DNA of 63,317 nt, counting the filler, from Chrysochromulina tobinii (Eukaryota), in NCBI GenBank assembly GCA_001275005.1. It is 5 parts of 5 records of this genome, joined end to end, with 100 filler letters (N's around TTAATTAATTAA, not from the genome) between each part and the next. Parts side by side here need not be neighbours in the genome. Positions count along the whole stretch, not along the records: positions 39,155 to 51,893 come from JWZX01001362.1; 4 more parts are not named here. One strand, written 5' to 3'. Positions 22,463 to 55,935 of this stretch are shown here, piece by piece. The translations under genes were made by a program, and so were the position numbers. The notes under the pieces were generated by a model. It saw only the letters and a list, made by a program, of their open reading frames with translations, was not told the DNA's origin and searched no databases. How positions within the stretch are numbered: position 1 is the first letter of the stretch; each line of letters starts with the position of its first letter.

Positions 22463-22503
<41 letters not shown>

Positions 22504-25500
22504 GCGGCGGCGGTGGCGAAGGTAGCAGCAGCAGCAGCAGCAGCAGCAGTAGCGAAGGGTACTGCCGCTATTCGCTACTCGTCGTGCGCCCGTTGGTAGT
22601 GACCCTCAAGAGTCGTCTCCGCATCTGGTGCGATCTCCCTTGATTGCTCTTAATTGGCCTTGATTGGTAATCACTCTGAAGAGTCGTCTCCGCATCTGGT
22701 GCGATCTCCCTTGATTGCTCTTAATTGGCCTTGATTGGTAGTGACTCTCAAGAGTCGTCTCCGCATCTGGTGCGCTGATGGCTACTGATGGCTACTGATG
22801 ACTACTGATGGCGTCCCTCATCGCATGCTGATGCCCGATTGCGTGGACGAACCCGAATCAGCGTCTGATGGCCTCCCTCATTGCATGCTGAGGCCCGATT
22901 GCGCACCTCATCAGGTGGGACTTGCGCGACGGCATCCTCAACGTCGCCTTCCTGCCGCGTGAACCCGTTGGGCAGCCCCGCGCCTCGGCGAGCGCCGTCG
23001 CGGGCGTGGCCGGGGCGGCCGAGATGCCCGCGGACTTTGGCGGCGGAGGTGGCGGCGGCAGTCCGAGCGAAGGCAGCAGCAGTACGTATCGGAGTGCCTT
23101 CCATGGTGGCATGCATGTGCTCACCACGGCGCTATCCCCTCTTCCCCACAGGTACGTATCGGAGTGCCTTCCATGGTGGCGCCGCCTCTCTGCAAGTGCA
23201 GGTGAGGACCTCTGATGGCCTCTGATGATGACTGATGATTGCGTTTGATTATCTCCAACTGATCTTCACTGAGCTACCTTTCTGCGCACAGGCGGCCGTT
23301 CACTTGTGCAACTGCTTGCCCGTTTGCGCCGACGGTCTGATACGCAAGATCCTCGAGTGCGCTCCCGAGATTGCTCCCGAGATTGCCTCCTTGATTGCTT
23401 CCGAGATTGCCTCCTTGATTGCTCCCGAGATTGCCTCCTTGATTGCTCCCGAGATTGCCTCCTTGATTGCTCCCGAGATAGCCTCCTTGATTGCTCCCGA
23501 GATTGCTCCCGAGATTGTTCCCGGATGCCGCCCCGATGTCCGTGGATGGCATGCTGATTGCCCCTCCTCATCAGGTGCGTCTTCGGGGGCTTCAGTGCCG
23601 AGAAGCCGTTACGAGTGCCGTTGATCGTGCCGGTAGCGTTCCGGGTCGCTGAGGACCTCGAAGACGATCACGACTCGCTCGCATCCCTCAATGGCGTGGT
23701 GCGCTGATGGCTACTGATTGGCTACTGATTGCCCTATGATTGCCCTATGATTGCCCTCTGATTGCTCGCGCTCCTCCACGGCGTGGTGCGCTGATGGCTG
23801 GTGGTTCGGGTTGATGATTTGCTGTTGGAGTGCGCTCGGATTGGATTGTGTCTGAGTGCGCCTGATTGCGTCCCTCATCAGGTGCGCGAGGCGACGCGCG
23901 TGCTCCTCGCGTTGACGAACCCGAGCAGGTGGGACTTGATTGCCACTGATGACTACTGATGGCCTCCCTCATTGCACGCTGAGTCCCAATTGCGTTGACG
24001 AACCCGAATCAGCGTCTGATGGCCTCCCTCATTGCATGCTGATGCCCGATTGCGTTGACGAACCCTCATCAGCGTCGACTCCGCCATCCCGAAGGCCGTG
24101 CTCAAGAGGGCCAAGGGGCTCGTGATCATCACGCGCCTCTGCGCCGGCTTCCTGCACGTGGGCGGCGGCTTCGGCTCGGGCATCATGCTGCGCCGGCTGG
24201 ACGAAACTCATTGGTCGGGGCCTGTGAGTGTGAACACCATCAGTCTGAATATGGGGCTGATGATGGGTATGCGGAAGAGCGATACGCTGCTCTGATGACC
24301 TCTAATGACCTCTGATGACCTCTGATGACCTCTGATGGCATCCCTCATCAGGTATGCGGAAGAGCGATACGCTGCTCTGCCTGCTCGATGACGCCGCAAT
24401 CAACGTGAGTGCTGCCCCCCCTGCGGGCATGCTGACTGGCCGGCGATGACCTCAGGCTTGCATGCTGATGGCATGGCGGGCATGCTGACTGGCCGGTGAT
24501 GACCTCAGGCTTGCATGACCGAATGCATGCTGATGGCATGGCCGATTGCATGCCGATTGCATGCTAATGGCATGCGCATGGCACGCTGATGGCCTCCCTC
24601 ATCAGGTGTTCAGCAAAGCGATCGACGGTCTGGGTCAGCTGAAATTAGGGACGCAGGGTGCTATCGCCGCAGGCCCTGTAGGTCGTGATGCGGCCCTCGA
24701 TGGCTACTTCTCCCAGGTGATGACCTCTGATGACCTCTGATTGCCCTCGATGGCTACTTCTCCCAGGTGATGACCTCTGATGACCTCTGATTGCCCTCGA
24801 TGGCTACTTCTCCCAGGTGATGACCTCTGATGATCTCTGATTGCCCTCGATGGCTACTTCTCCCAGGTGATGACCTCTGATGACCTCTGATTGCCCTCGA
24901 TCGTGTGCTCATCTCGCAGGTGATGACCTCTGATGACCTCTGATGACCTCTAATGACCTCTAATGACCTCTGATTACCCTCGATCGTGTGCTCTTATCGC
25001 AGGGCGGCGTCGCCTCCATCTTGTCATACTCGCACTCTCAAGGCGTCTTCGGAGGTGATTGCATTCTAATGACCTCTAATGACCTCTGATTGCACTTGTC
25101 ATACTCGCACTCTCAAGGCGTCTTCGGAGGAACGTCTATCGATGACCTCTAATGACCTCTAATGACCACTCTAATGACCTCTAATGACCACTCTGATGGC
25201 CTCTAATGGCCGCTGATGGCCGCTGATTGCCTCCCTCATCAGGAGCGACTATGGAGGGCGCCGTCCTGTTCGGGCGCCAAGCCGATAATGAGGAGTACTA
25301 TTTTCGCGAGGGCGTCACCGCCAAGGAGATCCTGTAAGGGCTAGGATGATGATGATGATGGCATGCTGATTGCATTCTGATTGCATATTGATGGCGTGTT
25401 GATGTGTTGACGGCGTGTTGATGACATCCCTCATCAGGTACGGGCTGGTCGAGCCCCCAAAGGATGAGGACGCCCTCGCCCTCTATGCTGTTCTCATGGA

Positions 25501-28721: not shown

Positions 28722-28839
28722 GAGCGAAGGACGTTTGCGCCGGACGCGGAGACGACGTCGAAGGCGCAGGCGTCGTCGTTGTACATTGGCGATCCAAAAC
28801 AAGACAAGTCAAGTCAAGTCAATCGTTCCTTCAGAACCT

Positions 28840-29110
28840 GTACCGGTAAAAAGACACCGGGGGGAGCCGGGACTCACACGGACACGCGGACGCACAAAGG
28901 CACACGGACCGCACAGACGAACCTCACAACCATCCAAACCCAACACACAACCAGCACGTCAGCGCGACGACCGAAGCCGCGGCCGACTCAAGAGCCGCAG
29001 GCCCGGAGTCGACCGCCCCCCGCGGCCGACTCAGAAGAGGCCACCCCCAGCGAACCCGACCCTGCCTCCACCCGCTCCCAGAGCGCCTCCCCGCGCCTGT
29101 ACCGGTACTG
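28840..29110. mobile_element. Second, right-truncated copy of the MITE-like element
   Basis: Same left TIR (GTACCGGTAAAAAGACACCGGGGGGAGCCGGGAC) and internal GACGAACCTCACAACCATCCAAACCC...CAGCGAACCCGACCCT as 19534-19780, on a different contig. Confidence 0.75.
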
Positions 29111-29253
29111 TACTCACTCTTCTCAGCCACTCCATTCACATTCTCATTGTGAATGGGGGCTCCCGAAACCTTGAGGGGAAAACGATGCGGAGCGTTCACA
29201 CCAATCCAAAACCCCCGCGGCCGTCACGAGCGCGTCACTTCGGTCACTTTGGC

Positions 29254-32200: not shown

Positions 32201-35200
32201 TCGGCGAGGTGGGCTATCTGCACCAGCTGCGCGACTTGGCGCTGACGGGTGCGCCAAGTATACTGGAGAAAGAGCTGAGCAGTGCATTGCTCGACGGCCG
32301 TCGCTACGAGGTCTCTGTGGACCGTGCGCAGTTTGCTCTGTCCTACGAGGAGAGTGTCTTATCACTCGATAAGCTCACCGTGCACCAGAAAGAGAAGCTC
32401 CGAGAGTGCTACGGCACGGCCGAGTCCAACCCGCTCCATCGTCTGCTTCGCCGCTCGCAAGAGCTCTTCGACGGCACGGCCACACCAAGCTACATCCACG
32501 TCGAGGCTCCTGCAGGGGCGGGCAAGACCTTTGTGGCGCTCAACTACCTGCTTAGCCGGCTGCAGAGCCATCCGACTATGACGGCGCTGTACGTTGCGCG
32601 GAACCGTGCCCTCTGCCTCTTTTTCGTCCGCTGGATCATCAAACGCGAGCCCAACCCGCTCAATCGTCTGGGACTGCTGCGCCGCTTGCAAGTGCTCTTC
32701 GAGGGCGACGAGCGTGAACCTCCGTTTGCACTTGGCCCGCAGCGAGTCATGCTCAAAAATGGCGTCATCCAGGTTGAGTCATCTCACTCGGACACGCACA
32801 ATTTCAGCCTGACGATCGTCGACGAGGCGCATCATATTTACACAAACCCTCTGTGCCGCGAGTGCGTCGGGGCCTATGTGCTGCCGCCGACAGAGGCGAG
32901 ACACCTCATGCTGCTCTCAGACATCTCGCAGTCGAGTGGCAAGGACAAGGAGCTCTATCCCAAGGGAAAGCCGAAGGTTGTCACGCTCACGGAGGTCGTG
33001 CGCTCCTCGCAGCGCATCGTTGAGGCGGCCTCTGTATTCCAGCTGGGCGACTCCGTGCACAAGATCTCATGCCAGCACTCGGCAGCCGGCCCCCCGCTCA
33101 AGGCCTTCATGTTCAACCTCGAAGGCGCGGTACCAGATGCGGTGCCATTGATGAAGGACCTCAATGACGGCCAGGTCCGCCAATACGCTGGCCAGACCGT
33201 TGAGGCCATCAAGCACATCATCTCGATGTTCGGCTCCCTGCGGCTGCACGACCGCGTTGCGATCGTCGTCGACGTTGACATACTGAATGACTTCCGAGGC
33301 ACCTTTTCCGCGGGGGCATACCAGGGTGGCTTGCTCGGTGCAGAGCTGCTTGAGCACTTTATGAGGCGAGAGTCGGCGACGAAGCAGCAGATTGAGGCTG
33401 GGCACGCCCGATCCTTTCAGATCATCGACGCGACGCAGGCGGCATCGATGGTGATGGGCGGCAGCCAGGACGATCGCGAGTGGCTGATCGTGGACACGAT
33501 CGAGGCGTTCGATGGGCTGGAGAGGCTCGTCGTGATCGCCGTAGGCCTCGATGCCAAGATTGTCCAAGGTGACAAGACGCTCAAGACACGATCGTTACTC
33601 TACCGAGCGATGACTCGCGCGCACATGCTCGCCATCGTCGTTCAGCACAACATCCCCGGCGGCTTCTTTGCCTTCCTCCATCAAGTCAAGCTCGATCCTT
33701 CTGCTGAATTTGATGCCGCGAAGGCGCAAAAGGCGCGCGACAGCACGGCGCTCAACAAGGTGATGACAAAGGGAAAGGCGTCCTCAGCCACAGAGCAAGC
33801 CGAGATGACCGTCCCATCATTGTCGACCGCAGTTCGAAGCCTCTTTAGCCGATTGGTGGGGAAAGTCGAGGTGAACTTTCCAGCATTGTCAACCACAGTT
33901 CGAAGCCTCTTCAGCCGATTGGTGGGGAAAGCCTCTTCAGCCGTTGCTGGTAGTGACGCGGCCGCAGACAGGGCTGCGCTCGAGGCCGGCGAAAAGAAGG
34001 TGGCGACCTTGTATCTCACCACGCTCGGCCACCTCATCTGCGCCTCGCTGTTGCTCGCCAAGTGGGAATCGCTAGAGGACCTCAATGGCGGCCCGCTCAA
34101 CGGCACGCGCTTCGATAGCCTGCCGACCCACGACGCTCCGGGCCTCTCCTGGTTCAGCGTCTTTGTGCCCTCGTGGATCGCTGAGCTCATCGTGGTTGGG
34201 ATGGCGATCTGGTCCGTCATGTTACTGCCGTCGACGGCGCGCAACCTGCGCATCCAGCACATCAACACGATCGCGCAGACGATTCTGTGCGCGCTCTTCC
34301 AGCTGCTCTTAGCTATCCGGCTCACCACCCAGCGTGGCTCGTGGCTGGTCGTCTTCTCGCCATGGTACGCATCGATGCTCGTACAGGTCTTCTTACACTG
34401 CCGCAAGATTCCTGATGCCGCCGGATTATTCCGCGGCTTGCGGCCAGGCTTACCGATCGGTTTCCGGCAAGTGCTCGCCCTCATGTTCTCGATTCCCATG
34501 GAGAATTATTTCCACTCAGACTATTTGGACTACTCGGGGCCCCAGCTGAACTACTCATACTCATACCCAGAGAACTTGACAGCTTTACTTTTGGAGTCCT
34601 CGACTACAGCTGTTGATTTCTCCCAGACTTTGACAGATGAACCTATGGTGATCAACACGGTCTTTCCTTATGTTGTGACTGCGCTACTGACTGCGCTTGT
34701 GACTGCGATACTGACTCTGCTATGGCTCAAAAAACAACTACTCAGGTCAAGACTCGCTTTTCAAAAATTCCTTTGGGTATACTCAACCGTCGTGTCCTTT
34801 ACTTCCTCATTCGGTTTGTTTTTCCGCCTCCCAGAGGGTTTACAAGGCATAGTATCCGCGCGCGGCGTCCTTGAGCCGTACATCATCGTAGAGTCCATCC
34901 CGCTGCTGCTTGGGTGCGTGTGGCTCGCAATCATCTCGTTCTCGTCGGTGCAGCGCGAGCGCAGCGGCCTGGGCACGCGTGGAGCATCACTGAGCTCTAT
35001 CCGAGTGGAGCGCGTAGTGGCCGAGGGAGGCAAAACCTCTTCAAACAACGCTGGTAGCGGCGCAGCCTCTTCAGCCAACGCTTGTAGCTGTGCGGCCTCT
35101 TCAGCCAGTGCTGGCAGCGGCGCGGCCTCTTCAGCCAGTGCTGGCAGCGGCGCGGCCTCTTCAGACGACGCTGGTAGCGGCGCAGCCTCTTCAGCCAACG

Positions 35201-38037
35201 CTTGTAGCTGCGCGGCCTCTTCAGCCAGTGCTGGCAACGGCGCGGCCTCTTCAGCCAGTGCTGGCAGCGGCGCGGCCTCTTCAGACAACGCTGGTAGCGG
35301 CGCAGCCTCTTCAGCCAGTGCTGGTAGCGGCGCAGCGCATGGAGAGAAGAATCTCACCAAGCAGACGATTTGGGATACAAGCAGCATCGAAGAGTCTGAG
35401 GAGGTGGAGGCGGGTTCAGTCGAGTTGAATCCCTTTGCTGCCGCAAAGACGACGGAAGGGATCGACGCGCCGATTGAGGCCGCCCTCCGCGACGGCGCAG
35501 TGCGCCTCATCGACGTTGCCTGGCTGTTGGATTCCGATCGCTCGGATAAGCAGCTGCCGCGCGTCACCAAGGTGGTGGCACGCCTCGCTTCTAACGAGCC
35601 GACGGACGTGCTGATTCGGCAGTTGGCGAAGCTCTGCGGGACCTCGTCCATCTGCATCACGGTGGAGGCGGCCTCGGCAGCCTCGCCGCCCCCCTCGCCG
35701 CCTCCCTCTCCTCCGGAGGTGGCTGCCCCGGCGGAGGTGCAGCTCGAGCGCTTCAGGCACGAGCTGGCCGAAGCGGGCCTCTCGCAGCTCGCGCACGCGA
35801 TCATTGACGATCTTGGCATCGAATCTGTGGAAGGGCTCTGCGACTTCACATTCAACGAGCTCAAGGAGCGCCTGAAGGCCGAGGCCGGCGTGACACTCGA
35901 CCTGGGGCATTCACAGAAGCTGAAGGCGTTCCTCGCCGCATCGCCTAGTGGCACGTCGGAAGAGCGCATGGCCGGTGGGCCGAAGGTGGCGTTCTCCGCC
36001 CACGGGCTGCAGCCAGATGCGAAGCGGAGGTGCAGCACGAAGCACGCCGATGCCAAGCTCACGCGCAGCCTCACATCGTCGGCGATGCTCAGAGCTCAGG
36101 TCAAGAACGCCGAGGCCGGCGAGGGCGACGTTGAGTCTCCGCACCTTGATACCTCGTCCGCAGCCAGCAGCCTCGGCTCTGGCCGTTTCCATTCGCGTCG
36201 CAGGAGAGATTCCTTTGCGGAAGACCTGACGATGGAGGCGGCCTCGAAGTCGGAGCATCCATCCGGCAAAATGACGGCGCGCGCCGTAGTGTCGGCAAAG
36301 CTGCGGCGACAAAACGAGACGAGACTGCCGAAGCCTGGGGCATTGGGTTCCGGCCGGATGGACCATAATCATGGTATTGGCCTCGAGGACCTCGACTCTC
36401 GCCCAGCACCCTTCGAACGAGGTGCATCTGCGACGCGCAAGACTCCAAATGGACAGCTCGATGCCCATGAGAAATCATTTGTGGTCACCTTCCACCTCAG
36501 CACGTTTGCCGAGGTCGCCCCGCTCACCGCAGCCGGCCTGTGCCGCAAAGCCGAGGCGGTGAAGGAGAGGCTGGCTGAGCTTGGGGCCGAGGACATCAAC
36601 ATAGTCATGGGAAAGCCCTTTCTGCCACGCTGCCAGGACATGCCGCCGGAAGCCTTCCTGTCCCCCGAGCGCGCCGCGGACCTCTATGCGCGGGGGCGCC
36701 GCGGCGTTTACGTGTCCAGCTGTTGCTGGCGCACTTCTGACTTGCCCGACCCCGATGGCCGCACGCTCGAAAAGTTGCGCGGCTACATGAAAGGCAGACA
36801 CGGCGAGTACGGTCTCTTTGTGGACTTTGCTTGCACGCCGCAGATCTTTGCGTGGCCGTCGTGGCACGCCCCGGAGGCGATCTCGCGGCGCTTTGGCGCC
36901 GAGGTGAGCCAGGGCCCGCTCACCGTGCTCAAGTTTGAGTGCGAGCGCGTCGCCACGGAGGTCGAGGCGCAGGTTTGCGTCGACAAGCTCGTCTCCCTGT
37001 GCTCGCAACAGGGCTGGGCGCTGGCCTCCATGGCGGACTTTGAGAGCCTCGGCCTACACTCGCGCGACTACGGCAGTGCGCTCTTCCACGGGCGTTACGT
37101 CAGAGGCGCGTACCGCTTCGACGAGGATGAGGAAGCATTGCCTGCAGAAGGCTACGTGCGCTTCCGCACGGAGGGCGACGCGCGCGCGGCATGGCGCCAT
37201 CCCGAGCTCAAGCGCTTGTGCGGCGGCAAGGAGCCAGAGCTGATGGGCGAGCACGTCTTCGAGAATGAGCTCAAGTTTGAACGCGGCCTCTCTGTCATGC
37301 CCTGCCTCTTCGCGTCCGCCACAGGCACCTGTGTGCTGCAGTTCACGGACCAGCCTGGCGAGCTCGGTAGTGACGACGGCGCGCCGAGCGAGCTCGTCTC
37401 CGAGCGCACGGGGACCGTCTTCGTCGTGCGCACCAACACGTCGCTCGAGGAGCTGCGGAAGGAGCTGGGCGACGGCGTGCTAGCCTGGGAGAAGAAGGGG
37501 TGGGGTGAGTTTGTGGTGCGTGTCGCTGGCGAGACGGCGGCACGCGCCGTGCGCTCGTTGAACGAGCGCGGCTACCCGCTCCGTCGCAAGGATCGCGTGG
37601 TGTACCCAATGTACAACTTGCGGCCGTACCGCTCTCGCGGCTGGCCAGTCTTTGATACGGCCGTCGCCTCGATTGTGGTCGCGTACGTCACGCAGCACAA
37701 ACGGCAAGGCAAGCCGCTTCCGGATCTCGTCGCGCGGGCGGAGGCGAGCAGTCCAAAGTTCATCAACATCGACGTGATCGGCGCACCGCGTGTGGTGGAG
37801 GTCACGCAGTCGCCGGAGCGCCTCCTCCGCGCGTGCATAGAGAAACTGAGCTCCAATAGGATCGTTTTCACCGGGAATGTCCAGCTTCGGCAGGTGTCCA
37901 GCTTCGTCCAGCTGCTTTCCGACTTAGAAGCCTCGATCGCGGTCGAGGTGACCGGGAGCGCGCCAGCACCTCTGAGGAGCCCGCGATCCCAGAACATGGT
38001 GTTGGCGGAGAACATGATGAACTTCATTTCGAGCTGA
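29254..38037 (+). CDS. Giant multidomain protein: HET-like domains, SF1 (UvrD/Schlafen-like) helicase, TMEM185-like membrane region, SAM-like domain and C-terminal HET-like domain
   Basis: Single ORF, likely ATG at 29254 (~2930 aa). HET-like VVSHGW..FIDFCSLPQ..PYQNRGWC (30286-30880) and YVSSCCW..PDPDG..FVDFACTPQ..PYRSRGW (36710-37650). Walker A EAPAGAGKT (32503), IVDEAHH (32815), LTEVVRSSQRI, DTIEAFDGLERLVVI, LYRAMTRA (33600). SWFSVFVPSW and SWLVVFSPWY transmembrane motifs. Confidence 0.8.
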   Translation: MEALLVAPLNPDEGQANPNSSLVDSARALWFGPKPSASSTQMRMTSASDIFRDATLIDDPRWDEKGFNEFSGMHARFVSLAYVKGIKDGRFTPSRGRADVDGAQFHDLRDDKLRHAGKTRDKVGLFAVLSATSFDYTGELSNVGEAIRKVEAAEIVKIVESKKGGGKDDDLIMWDFLCVDKADDGAKLGMYRMFTHYRVQTVILTKPPGVRRSVFERLETMAMLALVAFCQRIVNHEDVKEGLELDKLMDLPNLLAPLQSDHKTFLRVASTLEAVIKHLKPVAEDEKGFKVLCSEGDIAWVKATYLKELQRAMPTDGGRPFPRRQDLDQSKLFTGEPPKRKAIVVSHGWDTAFHISPSGEKLDLLVDALERVDAMTDDDGVFIDFCSLPQAAHASMPSIYFQHNGIKTYADKSALEKKQFNFAMWDMSRMYAYSYVIVLPKPTDITKFPGDTSAPLLAKDMKLVLDGEDVLVEGTDPRIVIQYCVKNGKAKTDGSQSFILDRDLAFADNVEFPVGSLKVVLSNVCGWGRVSPLPYQNRGWCCSEFTMALYNRRILNTKDVAQLTYMDSGRPWPKTVAEYDQMMRSGVEFTKRGDADLVKFLFFRMCFGLRHSFFPFEVQDTTGYGLPSEADLMAASREGQVGTGVNDQSKYYLYLALQPPAVQLDGRIWKRSLAQKLHRMQLLMIAKAPHWTGHGHHPVAFGIGDREMTESDLRRGGIHCLVWCSTGCGWETPKPSSDPKSLSIPGLCEVLTSLEPTKRPAVIFVVMPYGARRAAGQLAHALAGGSTLVVWIAENMLDEQRANGVLFGVLAPALQSLHEPWINGLSRSEFTSEVLHKSGQMVFGSQWDAADCLDVSTTVPQLRWAPSSLPQDRPWVHNLTSSFEGMALPRDGAVQTRRMMGTDDDKGEQRYLEVQLIVRENGKEIDVPQLFAREDGQTPEIVFAWLAKALPNGDAKNVTALYSHEVKRASGGWMSTLQVRLMIGEVGYLHQLRDLALTGAPSILEKELSSALLDGRRYEVSVDRAQFALSYEESVLSLDKLTVHQKEKLRECYGTAESNPLHRLLRRSQELFDGTATPSYIHVEAPAGAGKTFVALNYLLSRLQSHPTMTALYVARNRALCLFFVRWIIKREPNPLNRLGLLRRLQVLFEGDEREPPFALGPQRVMLKNGVIQVESSHSDTHNFSLTIVDEAHHIYTNPLCRECVGAYVLPPTEARHLMLLSDISQSSGKDKELYPKGKPKVVTLTEVVRSSQRIVEAASVFQLGDSVHKISCQHSAAGPPLKAFMFNLEGAVPDAVPLMKDLNDGQVRQYAGQTVEAIKHIISMFGSLRLHDRVAIVVDVDILNDFRGTFSAGAYQGGLLGAELLEHFMRRESATKQQIEAGHARSFQIIDATQAASMVMGGSQDDREWLIVDTIEAFDGLERLVVIAVGLDAKIVQGDKTLKTRSLLYRAMTRAHMLAIVVQHNIPGGFFAFLHQVKLDPSAEFDAAKAQKARDSTALNKVMTKGKASSATEQAEMTVPSLSTAVRSLFSRLVGKVEVNFPALSTTVRSLFSRLVGKASSAVAGSDAAADRAALEAGEKKVATLYLTTLGHLICASLLLAKWESLEDLNGGPLNGTRFDSLPTHDAPGLSWFSVFVPSWIAELIVVGMAIWSVMLLPSTARNLRIQHINTIAQTILCALFQLLLAIRLTTQRGSWLVVFSPWYASMLVQVFLHCRKIPDAAGLFRGLRPGLPIGFRQVLALMFSIPMENYFHSDYLDYSGPQLNYSYSYPENLTALLLESSTTAVDFSQTLTDEPMVINTVFPYVVTALLTALVTAILTLLWLKKQLLRSRLAFQKFLWVYSTVVSFTSSFGLFFRLPEGLQGIVSARGVLEPYIIVESIPLLLGCVWLAIISFSSVQRERSGLGTRGASLSSIRVERVVAEGGKTSSNNAGSGAASSANACSCAASSASAGSGAASSASAGSGAASSDDAGSGAASSANACSCAASSASAGNGAASSASAGSGAASSDNAGSGAASSASAGSGAAHGEKNLTKQTIWDTSSIEESEEVEAGSVELNPFAAAKTTEGIDAPIEAALRDGAVRLIDVAWLLDSDRSDKQLPRVTKVVARLASNEPTDVLIRQLAKLCGTSSICITVEAASAASPPPSPPPSPPEVAAPAEVQLERFRHELAEAGLSQLAHAIIDDLGIESVEGLCDFTFNELKERLKAEAGVTLDLGHSQKLKAFLAASPSGTSEERMAGGPKVAFSAHGLQPDAKRRCSTKHADAKLTRSLTSSAMLRAQVKNAEAGEGDVESPHLDTSSAASSLGSGRFHSRRRRDSFAEDLTMEAASKSEHPSGKMTARAVVSAKLRRQNETRLPKPGALGSGRMDHNHGIGLEDLDSRPAPFERGASATRKTPNGQLDAHEKSFVVTFHLSTFAEVAPLTAAGLCRKAEAVKERLAELGAEDINIVMGKPFLPRCQDMPPEAFLSPERAADLYARGRRGVYVSSCCWRTSDLPDPDGRTLEKLRGYMKGRHGEYGLFVDFACTPQIFAWPSWHAPEAISRRFGAEVSQGPLTVLKFECERVATEVEAQVCVDKLVSLCSQQGWALASMADFESLGLHSRDYGSALFHGRYVRGAYRFDEDEEALPAEGYVRFRTEGDARAAWRHPELKRLCGGKEPELMGEHVFENELKFERGLSVMPCLFASATGTCVLQFTDQPGELGSDDGAPSELVSERTGTVFVVRTNTSLEELRKELGDGVLAWEKKGWGEFVVRVAGETAARAVRSLNERGYPLRRKDRVVYPMYNLRPYRSRGWPVFDTAVASIVVAYVTQHKRQGKPLPDLVARAEASSPKFINIDVIGAPRVVEVTQSPERLLRACIEKLSSNRIVFTGNVQLRQVSSFVQLLSDLEASIAVEVTGSAPAPLRSPRSQNMVLAENMMNFISS
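35035..35336 (+). repeat. Coding 30-bp tandem repeat (ASSASAGSGA), about 10 units
   Basis: GCCTCTTCAGCCAGTGCTGGCAGCGGCGCG units in tandem. Confidence 0.9.
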
Positions 38038-39154: not shown

Positions 39155-42100
39155 CAATCCGTCGGGAGGCTCGCTGAACAACGCGGGCCCGGTGCGCACG
39201 AGCCACGCGTCCGAGGATCCAGTCAAGACCTTCCGCATCAGCTTGCCCACAGACCTCAGCGGCCCTCCAACCGCGTGGATGGGTGGCGGGGTGATCACCG
39301 AGAAGAAGGAGGCCACGACCGTGCACTTCCGCTCGTTTGCCGAGTGCGTGCACAAGCCGGGCGGCGTGGTGATGGCGGGCGACGGCACGCAGGGCTTCCT
39401 GATGACCGACATGACCTTCTCGATGGTCGAGCTCCAGCTACACGTCGCACAGCAGGGCGTGTACGCCTTCGAGGAAGCCTCGGGGCGGTTGCCCAACATC
39501 AACGACGCGGCGGATGCCGCACAGGTAGTGGCGCTCGCAGAGGAGTTCGAGGCGGCGACGGGTGTGCTCGGCGGCATGGGGCTCGAGGTGGACGAGAGCG
39601 TCACCGCGCGCGTCGCCATGCACTGCCGCGTCGAGTTGCAACCCATGTCCGCCTTCTGGGGCGGCGTGGTCGCGCAGGAGCTTGTCAAGGTGGCGGGCAA
39701 GTACGCGGGCCGAGAGCCTCGGAGTGCCTCATGCACGCGTCTCATTGCCTCTGGAGTGCCCATGGACTGTCCTCATAGCCTCCCTCTTCACTCAGGTACA
39801 CGCCCATCCAGCAGTTCTTGCACCTACAGTCCTTCGCGGCGCTGCCCCGAGACGGCGCCGTCGGCCGAGGATGCCCGCGCCGCTTGGGCTGCCGGTATGA
39901 CGATATGATCGCTGTGTATGGCCGAGCTTTCCAGGAGCGGCTGGGCGAGCTCCGTGTCTTCATGGTCGGCTGCGGTGCGCTCGGCTGCGAGTTCATGAAG
40001 AACTTCGCCCTGCTCGGCGTGTGCTGTGGGCCGACCGGCTCGCTCGTGGTGACCGATAATGACCGCATTGAGGTGTCAAACCTCAACCGCCAGGTACGCT
40101 GATTGTCGATGATTGCCACTGATGATAACGACCGCATTGAGGTGTCGAACCTCAACCGCCAGGTACGCTGATTGTCGATGATAGCCACGGGTGATTGCCC
40201 GTGATGTCCACTGATGAGCGGCCAATCGTCCGAATATGGCAGTTCCTCTTCCGCGAGGATAACGTGGGGAAGCCCAAGTCAGAAGCGGCCGCGGCACGCG
40301 CGCTCACGATGAACCCGAGCCTCAACATCGAGGCCAAGCAAGACCTGGTTGCCAATACGACGGAGCACATCTTCGACACCGACTTTTGGAACGGCCTCGA
40401 TCTCGTGTGCAATGCGCTCGACAACATGAAGGCGCGCCTGTACGTCGACGCGCAGTGCATCTTCTATGAGAAGCCACTGCTCGAATCGGGGACGATGGGG
40501 ACGGGCGCGAACGTGGACATCGTCGTGCCGCACTTGACTCGCTCCTATGCCGACGGTGGTGCGGCCGATGAGGGCGGCGGCGTGCCCATGTGCACGCTGC
40601 GCAACTTCCCGCACTTGATCGACCACTGTATCGAATGGGCTCGGGCAAAGTTCGAGGACCTCTTCGCCGACCCGGCCCAGAAGGCGGCCAAGGTGCTCGA
40701 GGACGTCAAGAGTTTCGTCAAGAAGACGCGCAGTGAGACGCTGCAGGCGACCGACGGACGCTCCTCCAAGATCTCCAAGGAGATTCCGAAGCTCAAGAGC
40801 TGATCGCCACGCTCGAGATGGGCACCAAAGGCCCCACGATGAGTGATGCCGTCGCGCTGGCGTGGGCAGCCTTCCATGAGCTCTTCCGCGACATCCTTCT
40901 CGACCTGACCGAGCAGTTCCCGGACGGCTCCAAGGATAAGAAGGGAGAGCCGTTTTGGAGTGGGCACAAGCGCTTCCCCAAGGCCGCCCACTACGACGCG
41001 TCAAACCCGGAGCATGTCGCGTTCATGCTCGCCACGAGCAACCTGTTCGCGGCGATGCTCGGCATCCCGGGTGAGAAGCCCGGCGAGCAAGCTCCGACTT
41101 CGAATTGCATGCGTGTGCTCACTACGGCGCCCCTTCCCCCTTCCCACAGGTAAGAAGCCCCCGTCGGAGCTCAACCAGCCCGGCCCGATGCGCTGGCAGG
41201 CGCCGTACCGGTCCGCGGAGTGGCTCGCGGGGATGCTCGCCAAAATAGGTGGCCCGCCCGAGCGCGTCAAGGGTGCCGTCGAGATCGACGGCGAGGAGAA
41301 GAAAGAGGGCGCGGACGACATGGCCAGGGAGGAGGCGGAGCTCGAGCAGCTGCTCACGCGCATCGCCGACATGGGCGCTGGGGCTAAGGGCCACTTCGAA
41401 TCGGCGGACTTCGAAAAGGACGACGACGACAACTTCCACATCGACTTCATCACCGCGTGCTCGAATCTGCGTGCGTCCAACTACCACATACCGACGACGT
41501 CGCGCCACAAATGCAAGATGATCGCTGGGCGCATCATCCCTGCGATTGCGACGACGACCGCCTCGGTCACTGGACTGGTGATGCTCGAGATGTTCAAGGT
41601 GCTCCAAAACAAGCCGACAGCGCAGCTGCGCAACGGCAACTACGACCTCGGATCGAACCAGTACATGCTGTTTGAGGCCGAGCCGCCTGCGCAGCTGGCG
41701 ACCAAGGTGATCGCCTCTGCTTGCCTATGGTTGCCACTGATTGCCATTAATTGCCACTGATTGCCACTGATTGCCTCTGATTGCCTCTGGTGTTCGAAGA
41801 CGAGCCACCCGTGCAGCTATCCACCAAGGTGGATAGACGATGCTCATCTCAAGGCCTCCTGTCGCCCTCCCCTGATGGCCTCCCTCATTGCATGCAGGTG
41901 GAGATCACGATGCCCGACCCCAAGGATCACCCTGACGCGTACGACGCCAAGGGCAACCTCGTCGACATGTACAAGGACCCCGACATGATGCTCGGCTTTG
42001 CGGAGCGGGTGCGCTGCTTCCCAGACCCGGGATGACCTCTCTGATGACCTCTGATGACCTCTGATGACCTCTGATGACGTCTGATTGCCTCACACCTCAG

Positions 42101-42698
42101 GTGCGCTGCTACCCAGACCCGCACACAAAGTACGACAAGATGTGGGTGGGCCCGGTGGCACCCACAGCGACGGTGCAGCAGCTGCGCGAGGCGATCGACG
42201 CGTGCTTTGCCGAGGCGGGTCTCAAGGCGGCGATGATCAACGGACCGACACAGCGGATCGAGTGCGAGAAGGACGAACACAACGCATCGGGCATCAAGGC
42301 GGGCTCGCGATCGCTGTGGAATCCTCTCCTCTCGTCCACCAAGGCCAACCTCGAGAAGCCGTGGGGTGCGCTGCTCTGATGACCTCTGATGACGTCTGAT
42401 GACCTCTGATGACGTCTGATGGCCTCACTCATCAGGTCCGCTGCTCAAGGAGCTGACCACGCGCGACGAGATCAGGTGGCAGACCGTCGACGACCCCGTC
42501 GATGTGAGTGGCAAGCGGCTGTGTACTGACCTGACCATCCAGCTACAGAACGACGACGGCGACGACGTGAAGACGCCCACCATCATCATCAAGCTCATGC
42601 CGTTTGAGTTCATCTCGTACAAGGCGCGAACAGTGCGCGAGGTGATGCCGTGGCTCAAAGACTATGCCCAGAAACGAAGCTTAACCGTGGTCAAGTAG
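39155..42698 (+). CDS. UBA1: Ubiquitin-activating enzyme E1 (5' end missing), multi-exon
   Basis: [90 protein letters not shown], catalytic [23 protein letters not shown] and [12 protein letters not shown]. Introns include ~39702-39795, 40094-40241, 41071-41149, 41708-41898, 42009-42100 and 42366-42435. Confidence 0.93.
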
Positions 42699-43275
42699 CG
42701 GCTCGGCGCTCGCGCGATCATAACTCATTGGGCTACAAAACATAGGTTGCAAAGGTCGTACTATCGTAGCATTAAACATGGCACCGACGGCTGTATATAC
42801 TAACCTCCGAGCGATATAGCTCCAAAGTGCAAACCGGGGCTCTGGCACCACCCGGACGCCACGACAGTCGACGCTGCGCTGCCTCTGCCGGGCGGGACAC
42901 CCGTAAGCCACCGGGCGGTCCGGTCGAGGGCCCCGCGTGAACGACCGCACACGATTCTTGTCGCGCGTAAAGTGCGCCGAATTCTAAAATTTCGACCTGC
43001 CCACGGCTACCGACACGAACGCCTCGCGCTTCCTACTACCACGTTCGTCGACTGAGTTACATAGAAGTTGGGGAACTCCTCGCCTCAATGCACAACCTGG
43101 TGACACGACGTAACGCCCACCTAACCCTCGAAGTTCATCATACCCGCCGCGCCGCTTGGGATACAGTCCCGTCCGACGCCCGGCCCGCCCTCAGCCCCCA
43201 AGACACGCACGATGCGCCTGCCTCAAGGCCGCGACGCGAGCTCCACGCTCGTGTCGCGTCTCGGGCCTCGAAGGA

Positions 43276-45681
43276 TTATGATTCCTCATCGGCGAAGACG
43301 TCCATGAACTTGACGGCTTTGGGGAAGGGCGGTGGCGCGACGGTGGAGGTGCGGCCAGCTGGTGTGCTGAGCTCAAGGTCCACCCCCAACCGTGTGCGCA
43401 CGTAGTGGACGACAGCCTGGCGCGCGCCGACGAGGCGATTGTAGTCATACAGCGCTCGAACGATCGGCTCGCCTTTCATGGCGAGGGAGACGGCCGCCTT
43501 GTCGTACGTGAGCATGTTGCCTTTAGCCTGTGAGCTATCGACCGTCGCGCATGGCAGCACGGTCGAGTCGTGAAATTCGCCGGTGGAGTTGTTCCGAAAC
43601 GTTGAACCTTCTTTGAGGGCTTGGCTAGTCGATCGATCCAACCATTCTAGCGCCGCGACGGGCGTAAAGTGCAGTAGGAAGGTGCCATCCCCACGCGGGG
43701 AGGCAATGAGGCTGAAGTCCACCGCGCGGCCGCCAAGCTTCTTGCAGATGTAGCGACGCAACCCAACGAGCGCCGAGCGGATCGGCGGTGCCGAAGGTCG
43801 CCACGTGACCAAAGTGAGCGCGATGGCGTCGCTCTGGTCACCGATCTGAACGAGATCGATGTAGGCATCGAGGGCGGCGACGTAGGTGGGGCGTGCGACG
43901 AGGCGCAGGACGGGCCACATCTCGATGCCGCCTCGCGAGATCTGCGTGTGCTGGGTGGCGGCGATGGATGAAGACGCTTTGGGGTTTTGGCTCACCTCAT
44001 GCGACGCCTCCCCCGGCAGACGATGCGCGAGGGCACCGGCCGCGTTGAGAACCTCGGCCTCGACCAGAATCTTCTCGAAGTCGTTTAAGAACCAGTTGCC
44101 CAATTTGGCCGACTCGTCCGCGACCTTGGCGACGCCGAGCTCAAAGGCGATGGTGCCACGTTGCTCCGAGAGACCCGACGAGGTCAATCCGAGCCCATGC
44201 GATTCGAAGTAGCAGAAGCCGTTCTTGCGAAACCGTCCGACCTCAGCAGCGCCAGCGCTGCGGCTGGTGGTCTGCGTGCCGTCGTCGTCGATCCCGACGA
44301 GATCGCAACGGCGCGTCCAGCAATTGACGAGGAAGCGATGGTTCGTGAACTGCTCGATCGTCGAGCGCTTGACGATCGTGTACTTGGGCGAGAGCATCAC
44401 CGACAGCATCATCCTCTCGTGCTTTTTTCGATCGCCCTTGTACAGCCTGCCCGGGCTGGCGCGAATGAAGGACACGAACTCGTGCAGCTCGTCGAATTCG
44501 CCGTCGCGGGCGCGGTTGGCGGCGTGGAGGTCGGCCATCGTCTCGCGAAGGAACTCCTCGACCTGTACACGGCGCTCGAGCGTCAACTGCCCAAACGAGG
44601 AGATAATCTTGCCAGCGTCGCGTAGCCGCTGCCAGGCCGACGAGTGCTCGTTGACACCGGCACGCTCGAGCTCGTGCTGACGGACGAGCTGCAGCGCGGA
44701 CTTGAGTTCCTCCTCTGTGGCGGCGAGGGGGGCGGGCAGCTTCTTGAGCGACTCGGGGCACATCTTCTTGAGCGCCGCCAGCATCTTGCGCTGTCGGCGA
44801 GCCATCTGTCCGACAAGGAGAGCCTTGATGCGCTGGCCCGCGAGCAACACGGCCGACTCCTCCCGTGTGAGGATATTGGGGAGGATGGTGTTGTCAATGG
44901 CTGACTCGCCAGCGGTCTGCGCGAGGGTCTGCGCCTGTCCTTTCTTGAGCTCGCGCGCCTTTTTGCCGAAGCTGGCGCGCACGTTCCCGTCGAGAGCACG
45001 CACCCAGCCGTCGTCCGACCACTGCGCCGGCACGTCGTAAAACCGGTACGGCGAGACGCCATCATACTCTGAACACTCGATGAGTAGCTGGTAGACGGCG
45101 GAGATGTTGGGGGCGCCATACCATTTCGCCGTCAGCTCGCGGCAGCGTGTGGCCCACGCCTCCCACTGCACCTGTGGCGGCATGACCTCCTCGACAGACA
45201 CGCCGACCATGTGCCTCGTGCGCGTGGCCGAGAGCGCCTCCTGGAGCTCCTTGTAAAACGGAACCCACTCGTGGGCGAGGAAGGCTTGTTTTGCATCCGC
45301 CGTGCCAGAGCGGCAGAGCGCCGTCTCCAGCTCCTTGGGGACCACCATCACGCGTGCTGCTCCGCCGGCCTTACTGGCGTATGGATCCGCGACGAGAGGG
45401 GTCCACTTGCGCAGGCCGTGGTGCAGCGGCACAAATGGCGCCCTTGACGGCGCCAGCGTTGGCGCCAGGCGGAGCGAAGGAAGCGAAGCATGGCCTTTCG
45501 ACGGCATGCGATTGAGTCGGCTCTCAAACGTCTCGAGCTCCTTCATTGTACGCTCGTGCTCAGGCGATCGGGTCAGCTGGATGGCTGGCAGGCGCAAATT
45601 GGAGGGTGACCGAGTTCCCAGCAGCGGCAGCTTGACCGGCGATCGGATGCCCGGCATGGCATTACCCAGCGCGTCCGACAT
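43276..45681 (-). CDS. Hypothetical protein (801 aa)
   Basis: Long intronless ORF with coding-like codon usage. IQ-like segment (RIKALLVGQMARRQ). No family confidently recognised. Confidence 0.65.
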   Translation of the reverse strand: MSDALGNAMPGIRSPVKLPLLGTRSPSNLRLPAIQLTRSPEHERTMKELETFESRLNRMPSKGHASLPSLRLAPTLAPSRAPFVPLHHGLRKWTPLVADPYASKAGGAARVMVVPKELETALCRSGTADAKQAFLAHEWVPFYKELQEALSATRTRHMVGVSVEEVMPPQVQWEAWATRCRELTAKWYGAPNISAVYQLLIECSEYDGVSPYRFYDVPAQWSDDGWVRALDGNVRASFGKKARELKKGQAQTLAQTAGESAIDNTILPNILTREESAVLLAGQRIKALLVGQMARRQRKMLAALKKMCPESLKKLPAPLAATEEELKSALQLVRQHELERAGVNEHSSAWQRLRDAGKIISSFGQLTLERRVQVEEFLRETMADLHAANRARDGEFDELHEFVSFIRASPGRLYKGDRKKHERMMLSVMLSPKYTIVKRSTIEQFTNHRFLVNCWTRRCDLVGIDDDGTQTTSRSAGAAEVGRFRKNGFCYFESHGLGLTSSGLSEQRGTIAFELGVAKVADESAKLGNWFLNDFEKILVEAEVLNAAGALAHRLPGEASHEVSQNPKASSSIAATQHTQISRGGIEMWPVLRLVARPTYVAALDAYIDLVQIGDQSDAIALTLVTWRPSAPPIRSALVGLRRYICKKLGGRAVDFSLIASPRGDGTFLLHFTPVAALEWLDRSTSQALKEGSTFRNNSTGEFHDSTVLPCATVDSSQAKGNMLTYDKAAVSLAMKGEPIVRALYDYNRLVGARQAVVHYVRTRLGVDLELSTPAGRTSTVAPPPFPKAVKFMDVFADEES

Positions 45682-46157
45682 CGTAACCGCGAGTACAGCG
45701 ATCTTGAGACAATTGCACGTAGAGCGCGTTCGTCATTCTGCATGGGTTAAGTTTCGGCGCAAACTTACTGCACTGCACGATCACGTTCGTTCACGTTCAC
45801 ACAGTTGAAGAGAGGGCTTCTGCGCGCTCTGGCGAGCTAGCGCGATCAGCGTCAGTCGTTTTCGCAGATTGCGCACCCGCCGGCCGCACTGGCCGAGGAT
45901 TTCCCCTACCAGCGCATGTCTTGATGGGTGACTTGGTTGATCGTTGACTTTGTTGCGTTTCATCAAAGCTCTGCCATTCACACAAACAATTCATTTCCAC
46001 TGGCGCACTCCCTCCCGAGTTCATATGTGGGGCCTGCCCTTCTTCTCTTTCTTTGGCTGTATCGCAGCTCTCTGCCTACATGTGTCTCAGTCCGGAGTCC
46101 TGCTTTGTATTGTATTGTCTTCACAGCTGTCCTCCTTCCGTGTGTGCGTGTATTAAC

Positions 46158-49100
46158 ATGAATGAAGAGTTTTTCTTGCCTAAACGAACAATGCGGAAGG
46201 CAGGAAGCCAGTCAATCGCGACGAGCCGACGCCTTGTCTTGGTCTTCGTGCTGGCCTTGCTAGCTTTCGTTCTCTACTGGCTCCGCCGCCGCCGCCGCCA
46301 GCCGCTGCTGCTCACACTCAAAGCAGAGCCGCCTGCGGGCAAGCGTGAGCAACTGGAGCAGCGGTTGGCGGAGCGACTCCGGGAACAGTCCTCATCTGCC
46401 GATGACCACTCGACGATACCCAAGTCTGCGGCGGAGAACACGCCAGCCGCGGAAGCCGCCTCAATGATCACCAACAAGTTCCTCCCCGACCTGCCCACGT
46501 TTGTCTTCGGCGATCGCACTCTCTACGAGGACGGCATCCTCGCGCGCGTAGGCAATCTGTCACGAAGCGTGCAGCAAGAGTTTGAGGAGAATGAGCGCGG
46601 CAAATGGCTGCCCGAGCTACGCTGCGTGACAGAGCAGCCAGCTAGAGAGGCATACCCATCGACAAAAGGAGTGGCGCCAAGCGACGCCCTCGTGCCAAGC
46701 TACACTCGCGACCTCGGCCGTACCGGCTGGACGCTCTCCAATTTCCACGAGGCGCAGCCTACGGAGGGCAACGGCCCCGGCCAGATCCCCGAGCGTCTCT
46801 CCCTCGCCGAGACGGCCGTACTACGCACCTACACGGGCCCGTGGTTTCAGGCGATCAACTTCTACCTGCGCTACCTGCCAGAGGTACGCTGCTGTGACGC
46901 ATCGCCGTACTATGAGCACTACGACCCTCGCCGTTGCTTCCTCGCCAAGCCCGGCCATGAGGACGTCTGCCACTTTTGCGGCAAGCCCAAGAGCAAGCAC
47001 TTCATTCAGACGCTCGATTCATGGGCCACAAGTGCAGCGCTACTCGTGGGTGGCATCCTCAAGCTTCGCTTCGCCTCGACCCCTATGACAGTCTATCGCG
47101 GCGTCAAGGAGCGGTTCATCCGTCTGCCAAAGTCGTTTGTCGCGCCGCACAGAGGCGCGTTCGGATGCGGCGTCGAGCCTGCGCCCATGAGCACCACCGA
47201 AGCCAAGGAGGTGGCTCAGAGCTATGCCGGGGACGACTGTGGATCTCTCTTTCAGATCGAGTTTGATGCGGGGAATCTTGGAGCGCGGCTCGGTTTCCTT
47301 TCGCAGTACCCAAAGGAAGAGGAGCTCGTCTTCCCGCCGGGCACCATGCTCACCTGCATGGCGGTGGAGCCGCTCGAGGGCCAAAAGCACCTCCTTCGCA
47401 TCAACTGCTCGATCAACCCCGACAGGCAAGTCAAGGACGCCATCGCAGCAATGATCACGCACCATGACACGCCCGGTCCGCAGGGCGGGCTGCCGAGAGT
47501 GTACATGCTCGTAGTGCTTCAGCCAACGCCTGTGCTCTTCGGCCATGTCCGTTCCCATCTCAGCCTGTTGCAGCAGCTTGCAAGTACCGAGCGCGCCCTT
47601 GCCGACCAGTGCGCTCAGTGGCCAGCCAAAGGGAAGGCGCCAATCTGCGTGCGAGACGCCGATCCTTCCGCCGTGCGCCTCTCGCTCGTGCGCAACCAGA
47701 CACACTGCCTCGTATGGCTCGGCCGGGGCTACGAAGTGGCACGTTCCACGTGTTCAGGCTCGCTGACGATCATGACTTTGGCGGCGGAGATCAGTAAGCT
47801 TCCGAAGGTCTGTCGGCCTCGGGTTGCTCTCGTGGCTTTGCAGCACGGGGCGGAGCGCGCTGCAAAGCTTCTGAGTGACCACGGCATCGGCTGTGTCTTC
47901 TGGGTGCGCACCACAAGTGAACCACCTCGTGCGCACGAGTTACTATCCATAGTTGTCGACCGAATCCTCGAACATATTTGCGGTGGCTGTCTTGGCGAGC
48001 AGCTCATGAGATGCTTCGGCGAGGCGCGTACGAAGCTGTCGAGCCACATCTCAGATGGTGGCTGCGTTGGCTCGCCTACCAGCGTTGATTCGCCGACAAG
48101 TACAGCGAGCACTTCATCATCGTGGATTCAGAGTGAGATGCCAGCGTTGCGTCCTTCCAACCTCGTCGACGAATCGACGCACGAGTTGTGCGAATCACTG
48201 TCGTCGCTGCAGCTGCTCGCGTGCGACGTGCCAAAGGTCGAGGAGCTCCGAAAGATGCTTATCGTGCGCAGAGAACGAGGCGTCGCTGTGTGGGGCAGGA
48301 GCGGAGCCGCCACAGACGAGAACTTGGCGCATCGCTGCCGGAGCGTCGCTCTCGAGGCAACCATGTCACTACTGATCGGGACCACTTTTGAGCTGGTCTG
48401 GCGCATCTCGGACGAGCAGAGCCTCAACGAAGGCATGCGTCGGATTAAGGCCGCTGGTCCGCTCGCCGCAGTGCTCGTTTGGATCGATCTAGTCGAGTCG
48501 CTGCCGCTCGTGCAGCTGTCGACCCTACTCAAACCCATTATGAAACGAGCGCGTGAGGCTGCCTGCGCGGTTGTGCTCACGTGCATAGGAACACACGCAC
48601 AGCAGATGCAGGCTCTTGACGAGGAGCTGGGCTTAGGAGTGAGCAGCTCAATTTATGAAGATTGATATGCATCCGAGTTCCACCACTGAGGAGCATGGTG
48701 TGCTGTGCTGCACAGGAGATGCTGCATATTGGGCAAGCGGCTGAGATGGAGTCCGATGCATCCACGCACCATAACGAGTTGCGCTTCACCCTACATGCGC
48801 CCGGAGGCCAAGCCGTGGATCCCATGAGCGTCGTTGAGCCAATAGCGCTACAGGAAGCTATCGAAGCCGCGCTCGGTGGGCAGCATCCTCTCGCAGCAGT
48901 GTACTTAAATGATGAGCAGGCAGTAATCGCGCGCATCCCGGTGACCGATGTAGCCTTTCTTCATGGACTGCGCGACAAGGTGCTTGAGGGTAGATTTGCC
49001 GTCGAGCTCACCGACAGGCTCCGCAGGCTGCCGAGCTCAGTCAGCCTGGACGTCAAGGTCGACCTCAGCGCATTTGCAGAGCGTTACGAGAGCAGCGTGC

Positions 49101-52576: not shown

Positions 52577-52831
52577 TCAGTCGCGCTGCGGCGCGGCCCT
52601 GGACTGCCTGACGTGGGCGCGGACCTCTTGGATACACGCGCCCACATTGCGCTCCACCGCCTCCAGGGCGGGGAGCACCATCTCACCATCTGTACCCACG
52701 TGGCCGAGGGCGGCATCTCGTGTGCCCGCTCCGCCGTCCGCCCTTGTCGGGACGTCCGCGGGGTTGGCCTTTGACGGCACCCAGTCGCCGTAGAACCAGC
52801 AGCGTAAGGCTGCCATCTGTGCATGGAACAT
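52577..52831 (-). pseudogene. RNase H C-terminal fragment of a DIRS-order (tyrosine recombinase) retrotransposon
   Basis: WFYGDWVPSKANPADVPTR matches the [WH]V.S..NPAD.PSR motif that ends DIRS/Ngaro RNase H; upstream sequence is replaced by the satellite. Confidence 0.65.
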
Positions 52832-52848
52832 CTGTTAGAACATCTGTG

Positions 52849-55800: not shown

Positions 55801-55935
55801 ATCATGATGTCATCATGCTCAGGCCGATTAGCCATCACAGATTCGCTCGTATAGCGGGCGGTCGGCGCGCGTGGTGCGCGAAGCGCGATCAACTGGCCCG
55901 GGCCGCCTCTCGGCAGCCCTTTGGACGGTGAGCAA
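52849..55935. repeat. ~145-bp satellite array, about 20 units
   Basis: GGCCGCCTCTCGGCGGCCCCCTCGGTGAGCAATCATGACGTAATCATGATGCAATCATG...CTCGCGTTGCGCGCGAGCGAGGCGCT; unit starts at 55167, 55312 and 55457 are 145 bp apart. Confidence 0.92.

What the first reader, a model, noticed from the sequence alone, without database searches (positions are those of the whole stretch)
39702..42435. The same echo-intron pattern recurs in UBA1 on another contig, with a range of decay
Seen: intron 42009-42100 starts GTGCGCTGCTTCCCAGACCCG versus next exon GTGCGCTGCTACCCAGACCCG (20/21). Intron 42366-42435 starts GTGCGCTGCTC versus GTCCGCTGCTC. Intron 41071-41149 starts GTGAGAAGCCC versus GTAAGAAGCCC. At 40055-40160 about 39 nt of exon end plus donor is duplicated. 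The filler is the same CTGATGAC type. Because E1 is highly conserved, the splice sites are unambiguous. Inference: the process acts at multiple loci and has operated repeatedly over time. Some mismatches move the copy toward better donors (GTGCG, GTGAG).
Basis: seen in the sequence. Interest (0 to 1): 0.78.

Follow-up and report, generated by a model that had tools for sequence, protein, structure and literature searches.

The report
Introns born with copied exon starts
In a freshwater alga's ubiquitin-activating gene, several real introns begin with an 11-21-base copy of the next exon and are missing from close relatives, so they are likely young introns made when a piece of another intron was pasted in and the target site was duplicated.

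Summary
Mostly confirmed. The gene is an E1 ubiquitin-activating enzyme of the Chrysochromulina tobinii/parva group. RNA contigs from three studies skip its six introns (I2 least firmly). Echoes: I5 20/21 and I3 10/11 beat all 1231 control sites, I6 is weaker (6/1231). New here: intron presence varies. A second allele (L008; dS 0.071) has two extra introns, one with an 18-21-base echo. ORF calls of a sister lineage run straight through the I3 and I5 sites, and marine relatives' DNA lacks I2-I5. I4 hides an 82-base decayed copy of its own intron-less junction. Corrections: I3's body is a different module, not the decamer filler; the 40055 repeat copies the upstream exon end; copies swap letters, so echoes are no clock; 'better donor' holds for one case at most. 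Best reading: intron-derived DNA carrying branch site and acceptor is inserted with a variable-length duplication that supplies GT, likely by break repair (0.45) or retro-insertion (0.28). It resembles introners and Daphnia repair-born introns but fits neither exactly. The scan noted the same footprint before on another piece of this genome (e1-2577349).

The parts
39156..42698 (+). E1 ubiquitin-activating enzyme gene, 5' part cut off by the contig end; four single-base assembly errors in exons
   Evidence: Pfam E1_4HB, ThiF, UBA_E1_SCCH; cluster members named E1 of C. tobinii and a C. parva model; indels against all 4 runs and L010
39525..39542 (+). Empty site of intron A: single here, duplicated around a 76-base intron in L008/L009
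   Evidence: echo 16 of 18, 0 of 1231 controls
39701..39795 (+). Intron I1, filler-like body, no significant echo
   Evidence: RNA join in X14; 93 of 1231
40094..40242 (+). Intron I2
   Evidence: homolog junction NLNRQ/FLF; RNA joint with 27-letter side; absent in L062 DNA
40124..40162 (+). Copy of the last 39 bases of the upstream exon inside I2, followed by a second donor
   Evidence: also in L008 with one site swapped between copies
40690..40695 (+). Empty site of intron B (between 40692 and 40693): 265-base filler intron in L008/L009, only GTG repeated
41071..41149 (+). Intron I3: 11-base echo (13 exact in L008) plus acceptor-bearing module shared with intron A and window intron 23082-23151
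   Evidence: site contiguous in 6 unspliced ORF calls of the sister lineage
41707..41897 (+). Intron I4, filler at both ends
   Evidence: RNA join in X12; site contiguous in L027 DNA
41788..41865 (+). Decayed copy of the joined exon junction inside I4 (41 bases upstream plus about 41 downstream)
   Evidence: local alignment score 67, shuffle maximum 30; also in L008, L014
42009..42100 (+). Intron I5: 21-base echo of 42101-42121, then decamer filler and acceptor
   Evidence: site contiguous in 13 unspliced ORF calls and in L027, L065 DNA
42366..42435 (+). Intron I6: 11-base echo of 42436-42446 running into filler
   Evidence: present in the sister lineage
23082..23151 (+). Comparison intron c4 in another gene: perfect 29-base echo plus the I3-type module
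   Evidence: reading frame only, no RNA
24267..24351 (+). Comparison intron c9: perfect 28-base echo plus decamer filler
   Evidence: reading frame only, no RNA

Best explanation
These are real spliceosomal introns, and the echo-bearing ones were likely born when repair of a staggered break or stalled fork in an exon copied in the 3' part of another intron (branch site, pyrimidine tract, AG) and re-joined upstream, duplicating 10-40 bases of the target. Shown: splicing, the direct repeats, shared acceptor-ending bodies, and presence/absence among relatives. Inferred: the first copy of the repeat gives the GT donor, the insert gives the acceptor, the second copy keeps the protein unchanged, and only events that start at GT and end at AG survive. 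Inferred: the same copying keeps acting on existing introns (upstream-exon copies in I2 and I4), and the filler then expands, contracts and exchanges between copies. The enzyme is not identified.
For: Splicing. Echo lengths differ from site to site: 11, 13-16, 18-21, 21, 28, 29, about 41. Bodies are shared between unrelated sites (I3, A, c4), and the decamer filler is laid thousands of times deeper than the exons in a DNA run (222,840 against about 60; summed contigs, no copy number). Empty sites hold one copy of the repeat. At A the intronless alleles keep the outgroup residues. Echo and filler overlap by 3-5 letters at I6, c9 and c4; I5 is unclear. Of 25 introns examined, 7 have an echo at or under 6 of 1231 controls and 8 others hold a copy of the upstream exon end (p 0.003 each), so both ends get duplicated, as in Daphnia repair-born introns (PMC4202315, passages). 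Orthologous introns change length up to 2.7-fold while exons differ 2.2%. 0 of 13 relatives' introns have a forward echo or filler.
Against: The sister lineage's empty I3 and I5 sites are seen only in ORF translations, not DNA; laying four lake DNA runs gave too little cover. No break-repair footprint separates this from retro-insertion; a fixed AG end with variable 5' start is also what retro-insertion gives (recalled). Intron B, clearly young, has no echo beyond GTG. Microhomology rests on 4 junctions. 17 of the 25 introns were defined by eye (15 checked by reading frame) without RNA. The pattern 'exon starts GT or ends AG' (25 of 25) is not specific: 12 of 13 relatives' introns show it too. 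7 of 25 against 0 of 13 is a small sample.
Confidence: 0.45

Rival explanations
1. A non-LTR retroelement's enzyme copies intron RNA, or a short SINE-like RNA ending in an acceptor, into a nick; the second nick lies 10-40 bases on, giving the variable duplication.
For: Three copies of one module end at the same CACAG and start at different points. Filler lies in the sense strand of introns (84 plus, 1 minus motif in the window; the 7 minus hits of L008 lie in introns of minus-strand genes). A survey table lists a non-LTR family with 'co-opt 5' carry 3'' in another haptophyte (PMC12130899 supplement). An earlier scan note reports over 100 related introns (e1-2577349, not checked here).
Against: At least three different acceptor ends are used; copies of the upstream exon end with a new donor need a second mechanism; no poly(A) tail. 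No reverse transcriptase among 11 long ORFs of the window, which says little about the genome. Sense orientation also follows from selection.
Confidence: 0.28
2. The introns are older than their echoes: local duplications were added later around existing introns, and relatives lost the introns precisely by recombination between the repeats.
For: I2 and I4 show that exon sequence is copied into existing introns. Junction homology favours precise intron loss in animals (PMC3698931, abstract). The window's empty A site equals the intron-side copy, as loss between repeats could give.
Against: Needs several independent losses: A is absent in the window and in P0137/P0138, B in the window type and the sister lineage, I3 and I5 in the sister lineage and marine relatives. 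At I5 the empty alleles carry the outgroup residue Leu, not the Arg of both copies. B has no repeat to recombine.
Confidence: 0.15
3. A miniature DNA transposon with inverted ends (CTGATGA ... TCATCAG) is the introner; the decamer array grew from its left end.
For: The common acceptor end is the reverse complement of the filler unit. Several introns start with five letters and then CTGAT. Dinoflagellate introners have this geometry (10.1101/2020.10.14.339549).
Against: Those classes have one repeat length each (3, 4, 5 or 8); here lengths run from 11 to about 41. The I3/A module, I5 and B show no inverted ends of 6 or more. The 2025 survey lists 0 introner families for C. tobinii.
Confidence: 0.07
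4. The matches are chance plus donor consensus.
For: GTGCG is a common donor here and in relatives; I6 has 6 of 1231 equal controls; I1 is not significant.
Against: I5, I3, A, c4 and c9 exceed all 1231 controls.
Confidence: 0.05

Closest known systems
Introners that take the 5' splice site from the target duplication (Symbiodinium; Polarella classes 4/5, 6/8/10; 10.1101/2020.10.14.339549; 10.1101/2022.06.06.494994 Fig. 2B)
   Same: Insert carries the acceptor, the duplication supplies the donor, the mRNA is unchanged, bodies recur at unrelated sites.
   Different: Their duplication has one length per class (4 or 8) and they have inverted ends. Here it is 11-41 bases, bodies are mixed and truncated, and inverted ends are seen in one body type only.
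Repair-born introns of Daphnia pulex (PMC4202315)
   Same: Polymorphic in populations, direct repeat of adjacent exon at the opposite end, repeated secondary insertions with internal repeats.
   Different: Daphnia exon-derived repeats are 4-12 bases and the introns are AT-rich with mostly unknown source; here repeats are longer and the insert is a high-copy, splice-signal-bearing piece of other introns.
Haptophyte introner families in PMC12130899 Dataset (Emiliania fam24, '10bp terminal direct repeats', co-opt 5' carry 3'; Pavlovales fam1, non-LTR)
   Same: Same splice-site geometry in the same phylum.
   Different: Small families (5 and 7 copies) of end-to-end similar introns; sequences not compared here. 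C. tobinii itself is listed with 0 families. The marine Chrysochromulina introner of the 2022 paper has the opposite geometry (4-base repeat, carries the donor).
Intron gain by tandem genomic duplication (listed in PMC3296678)
   Same: Exon sequence is duplicated and one copy ends up in the intron.
   Different: There the whole intron is local sequence; here most of each intron is foreign to the site.

Membership tests
U2 spliceosomal intron | GT...AG segment removed from RNA, restoring the conserved protein | tested here: met
   RNA contigs of three studies; homolog junctions; I2 joint weakest
Introner (broad sense) | Similar intron sequences at unrelated sites | tested here: met
   I3, A and c4 share a module (24 of 24 between c4 and L014 I3); decamer filler in many introns. 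Similarity is partial, not end to end
Introner (broad sense) | Recent gain: empty orthologous sites | tested here: met
   A and B in DNA; I3 and I5 in ORF calls and distant DNA; polarity by parsimony
DNA-transposon (MITE) introner | Fixed-length target duplication | tested here: not met
   11 to about 41 bases
DNA-transposon (MITE) introner | Terminal inverted repeats | tested here: inconclusive
   7-base match between filler unit and acceptor end in I6; none of 6 or more at the ends of I3, A, I5, B
Non-LTR retro-insertion | Fixed 3' end, variable 5' truncation, variable duplication | tested here: inconclusive
   fits the 3 independent module copies; selection for splicing predicts the same
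Non-LTR retro-insertion | Autonomous reverse-transcriptase partner sharing the 3' end | not testable with these tools
   no whole genome held; 11 long ORFs scanned, none matched
Daphnia-type break-repair intron | Direct repeat of adjacent exon, variable length, nested secondary repeats | tested here: met
Daphnia-type break-repair intron | Insert made at a DNA break by repair enzymes | not testable with these tools
   needs experiment
Pure tandem-duplication intron | Intron made wholly of flanking exon sequence | tested here: not met
   echo covers 11-21 of 70-92 bases in I3, I5, I6
Known structured RNA in the intron | Rfam match at gathering score | tested here: not met
   4 weak C/D-box matches on filler, all far below cut-off

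The most novel reading that the evidence does not exclude
This alga runs a self-feeding intron factory with no transposon of its own: thousands of introns made of tandem branch-site repeats serve as repair templates, each new insertion leaves an AG-GT junction that guides the next, and new introns arise several times faster per synonymous change than in dinoflagellates while escaping introner surveys because no two copies match end to end.
Probability: 0.3. Interest if true: 0.82.

Novelty: new variant of a known kind. Interest (0 to 1): 0.62.

Why it matters
Where new introns come from is still open outside introner families; in Daphnia and Drosophila most gained introns have no known source (PMC4202315, PMC3296678, passages). 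Here source (other introns' 3' ends), footprint (long variable duplication) and empty alleles all sit in one conserved gene of a cultured alga reported as probably haploid with a 59-Mb genome (PMC4580454, passages). Two intron differences in 3.46 kb at dS 0.071 give about 8 gains per kb per unit dS (95% range 1-29; one gene, chosen for its introns), against 'order of one' reported for dinoflagellates. Strain comparison could test repair against retro-insertion directly, and surveys that need end-to-end similarity may be missing this class.

Tried and rejected
No whole genome was held. Motif scans of viral contigs and genome contigs found nothing; one search gave 5 isolated hits in prokaryote records without filler arrays, taken as chance. 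Four lake DNA runs laid on the gene gave scattered short pieces and no usable joint. The 25-of-25 'GT after or AG before' pattern (Fisher 1e-4) was dropped as specific evidence because 12 of 13 relatives' introns share it. Anchored mirror echoes at intron 3' ends were not significant for any of 25 introns (best 28 of 1683). A 38-base reading of the I3 echo in L008 was cut back to 13-16, since the rest aligns with the shared module. Protein trees separate the freshwater group from marine relatives but leave inner forks open; polarity inside the group rests on difference counts. Of 38 cluster proteins examined, many were a neighbouring gene or did not cover a site; gene models and transcripts (P0128, P0131, P0134) were not counted as empty alleles. 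Rfam gave nothing. Searches for a description in print found none for this alga; subscription journals are mostly missing, bioRxiv supplements were not seen, and files 13-14 of PMC12130899 were not searched.

Full report
Setting. The window joins five contigs with N linkers; the finding lies on 39155-51893. The gene is an E1 ubiquitin-activating enzyme (Pfam). Its 90% protein clusters hold records named for Chrysochromulina tobinii and C. parva, and runs that hold the DNA are mixed cultures and lake samples. The window has four single-base errors in exons, absent from all four runs laid and from L010, which is otherwise identical.

Observation. Six introns were placed: I1 39701-39795, I2 40094-40242, I3 41071-41149, I4 41707-41897, I5 42009-42100, I6 42366-42435. 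RNA contigs of three studies join across them; the I2 joint has a 27-letter side and fits either copy, but the frame requires the first donor. The three echoes are as stated. Scored against 1231 GT sites of other coding DNA, I5 and I3 are beaten by 0, I6 by 6, I1 by 93; I2 and I4 have none. The 39-base repeat at I2 copies the upstream exon end and donor. I read it as an old echo of about 41 bases, later pushed inward by a second duplication that brought a new donor (inference).

Bodies. I5 and I6 hold the decamer filler and I1, I2, I4 variants of it; its core matches the branch-site consensus (recalled). I3 holds another module ending in a pyrimidine tract and CACAG, shared with window intron 23082-23151 and with intron A of L008, each starting at a different point. 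Filler motifs lie on the sense strand of introns and are laid thousands of times deeper than exons in DNA run X8 (not a copy number).

Relatives. Of 80 loci, L008 and L009 carry one second allele (dS 0.071, dN 0.008 over 3459 bases). It has all six introns plus A (76 bases, echo 16 of 18) and B (265 bases, GTG only), both absent from the window. At A the window and two other unspliced ORF calls keep the outgroup residues, and the exon-side copy in L008 has changed at two sites. B goes with one haplotype; all 9 unspliced ORF calls that cross the site are of the other type. Among 38 cluster proteins, 13 calls that stop inside I6 run through the I5 site without an insert, and 6 that run into I4 lack I3, while 8 read through I3. 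These form a sister lineage about 2% apart in protein; its DNA was not seen. Marine relatives' DNA has no intron at I3, I4, I5 (L027), I2 and B (L062) or I5 (L065). At I5 both copies encode Arg where empty alleles have Leu, so a donor-creating change likely came first (inference).

Against the clock and donor ideas. Orthologous introns change length up to 2.7-fold. The two I2 copies hold swapped letters in the two alleles. The window's GTGAG start at I3 is GTAAG in L008 and L014. Only I6 fits a move to a better donor.

Wider sample. A 15-intron model of the gene at 20666-27051 keeps one 1139-codon frame (no RNA support). With the E1 introns, A, B and two L008 introns, 7 of 25 have a significant forward echo (9-29 bases) and 8 others hold a copy of the upstream exon end. 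0 of 13 relatives' introns have a forward echo or filler; 1 of 13 has a mirror echo. The tidy 'GT after or AG before' rule is shared by relatives and was set aside.

Mechanism. Variable repeat length, mixed bodies, short overlaps at 3 of 4 echo-filler junctions and duplications at both intron ends favour capture of intron DNA during repair (0.45). A fixed acceptor end with variable start keeps retro-insertion open (0.28). Later duplication plus precise loss (0.15) needs many losses. A fixed-repeat transposon (0.07) fails the length test, though the acceptor end is the reverse complement of the filler unit.

Literature seen. 10.1101/2022.06.06.494994: passages. 10.1101/2020.10.14.339549: parts 1-2 of 4. 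PMC12130899: passages and supplement rows; C. tobinii 0 families, Emiliania and Pavlovales families with the same geometry. PMC4202315, PMC4580454, PMC3296678: passages. PMC11782384 and PMC3698931: abstracts; the first reports 4-30-base repeats near many intron borders in general. Nine searches found no description of these introns in this alga.

Verdict. A real, ongoing intron-gain process; a new variant between introners and repair-born introns; enzyme unknown. Interest 0.62.

Noticed in passing
window 20666-27051 (+): A gene with 15 filler introns by reading frame (1139 codons), two with GC donors, several with tandem copies of exon end plus donor (50-77-base units). Its middle looks like a SYLF/Ysc84 domain (recalled, no family scan run).
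   Followed up: partly
window 52812-55925: Array of 145-150-base repeats with internal 11-base units, unlike the intron filler in layout; no gene assigned.
   Followed up: no
window 45948-48665 (+): 905-codon open frame with a weak ADP-ribosyltransferase match (PF03496, E 3.4e-06), next to a long frame with a DEAD-type helicase match.
   Followed up: no
window 6143-14507 (+): PHD, AAA and many Tudor/chromo repeats followed, in another frame, by Cdc6/ORC lid and winged-helix domains: probably one ORC1/Cdc6-like gene with a frame break or intron.
   Followed up: no
window 28363-38037 (+): 3224-codon frame without introns or filler, weak helicase and transmembrane matches; intron-free giants sit beside intron-dense genes.
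   Followed up: no
L040 866-960: An E1 intron of a distant organism ends with a 19-of-20 copy of the upstream exon end (mirror echo), without filler.
   Followed up: partly
P0125, P0131 (E1 relatives): P0125 reads through two tandem copies of the I3 module; the C. parva model P0131 repeats the I2 exon-end peptide three times, suggesting further copies there.
   Followed up: no
L010 7860-8300 versus L008 8060-8100: The window-type allele runs in frame from an upstream open frame into E1, while L008 starts with its own ATG and has different upstream DNA.
   Followed up: no
window 39845-39886 and 40797: Three extra bases and one missing base in E1 exons are assembly errors.
   Followed up: yes
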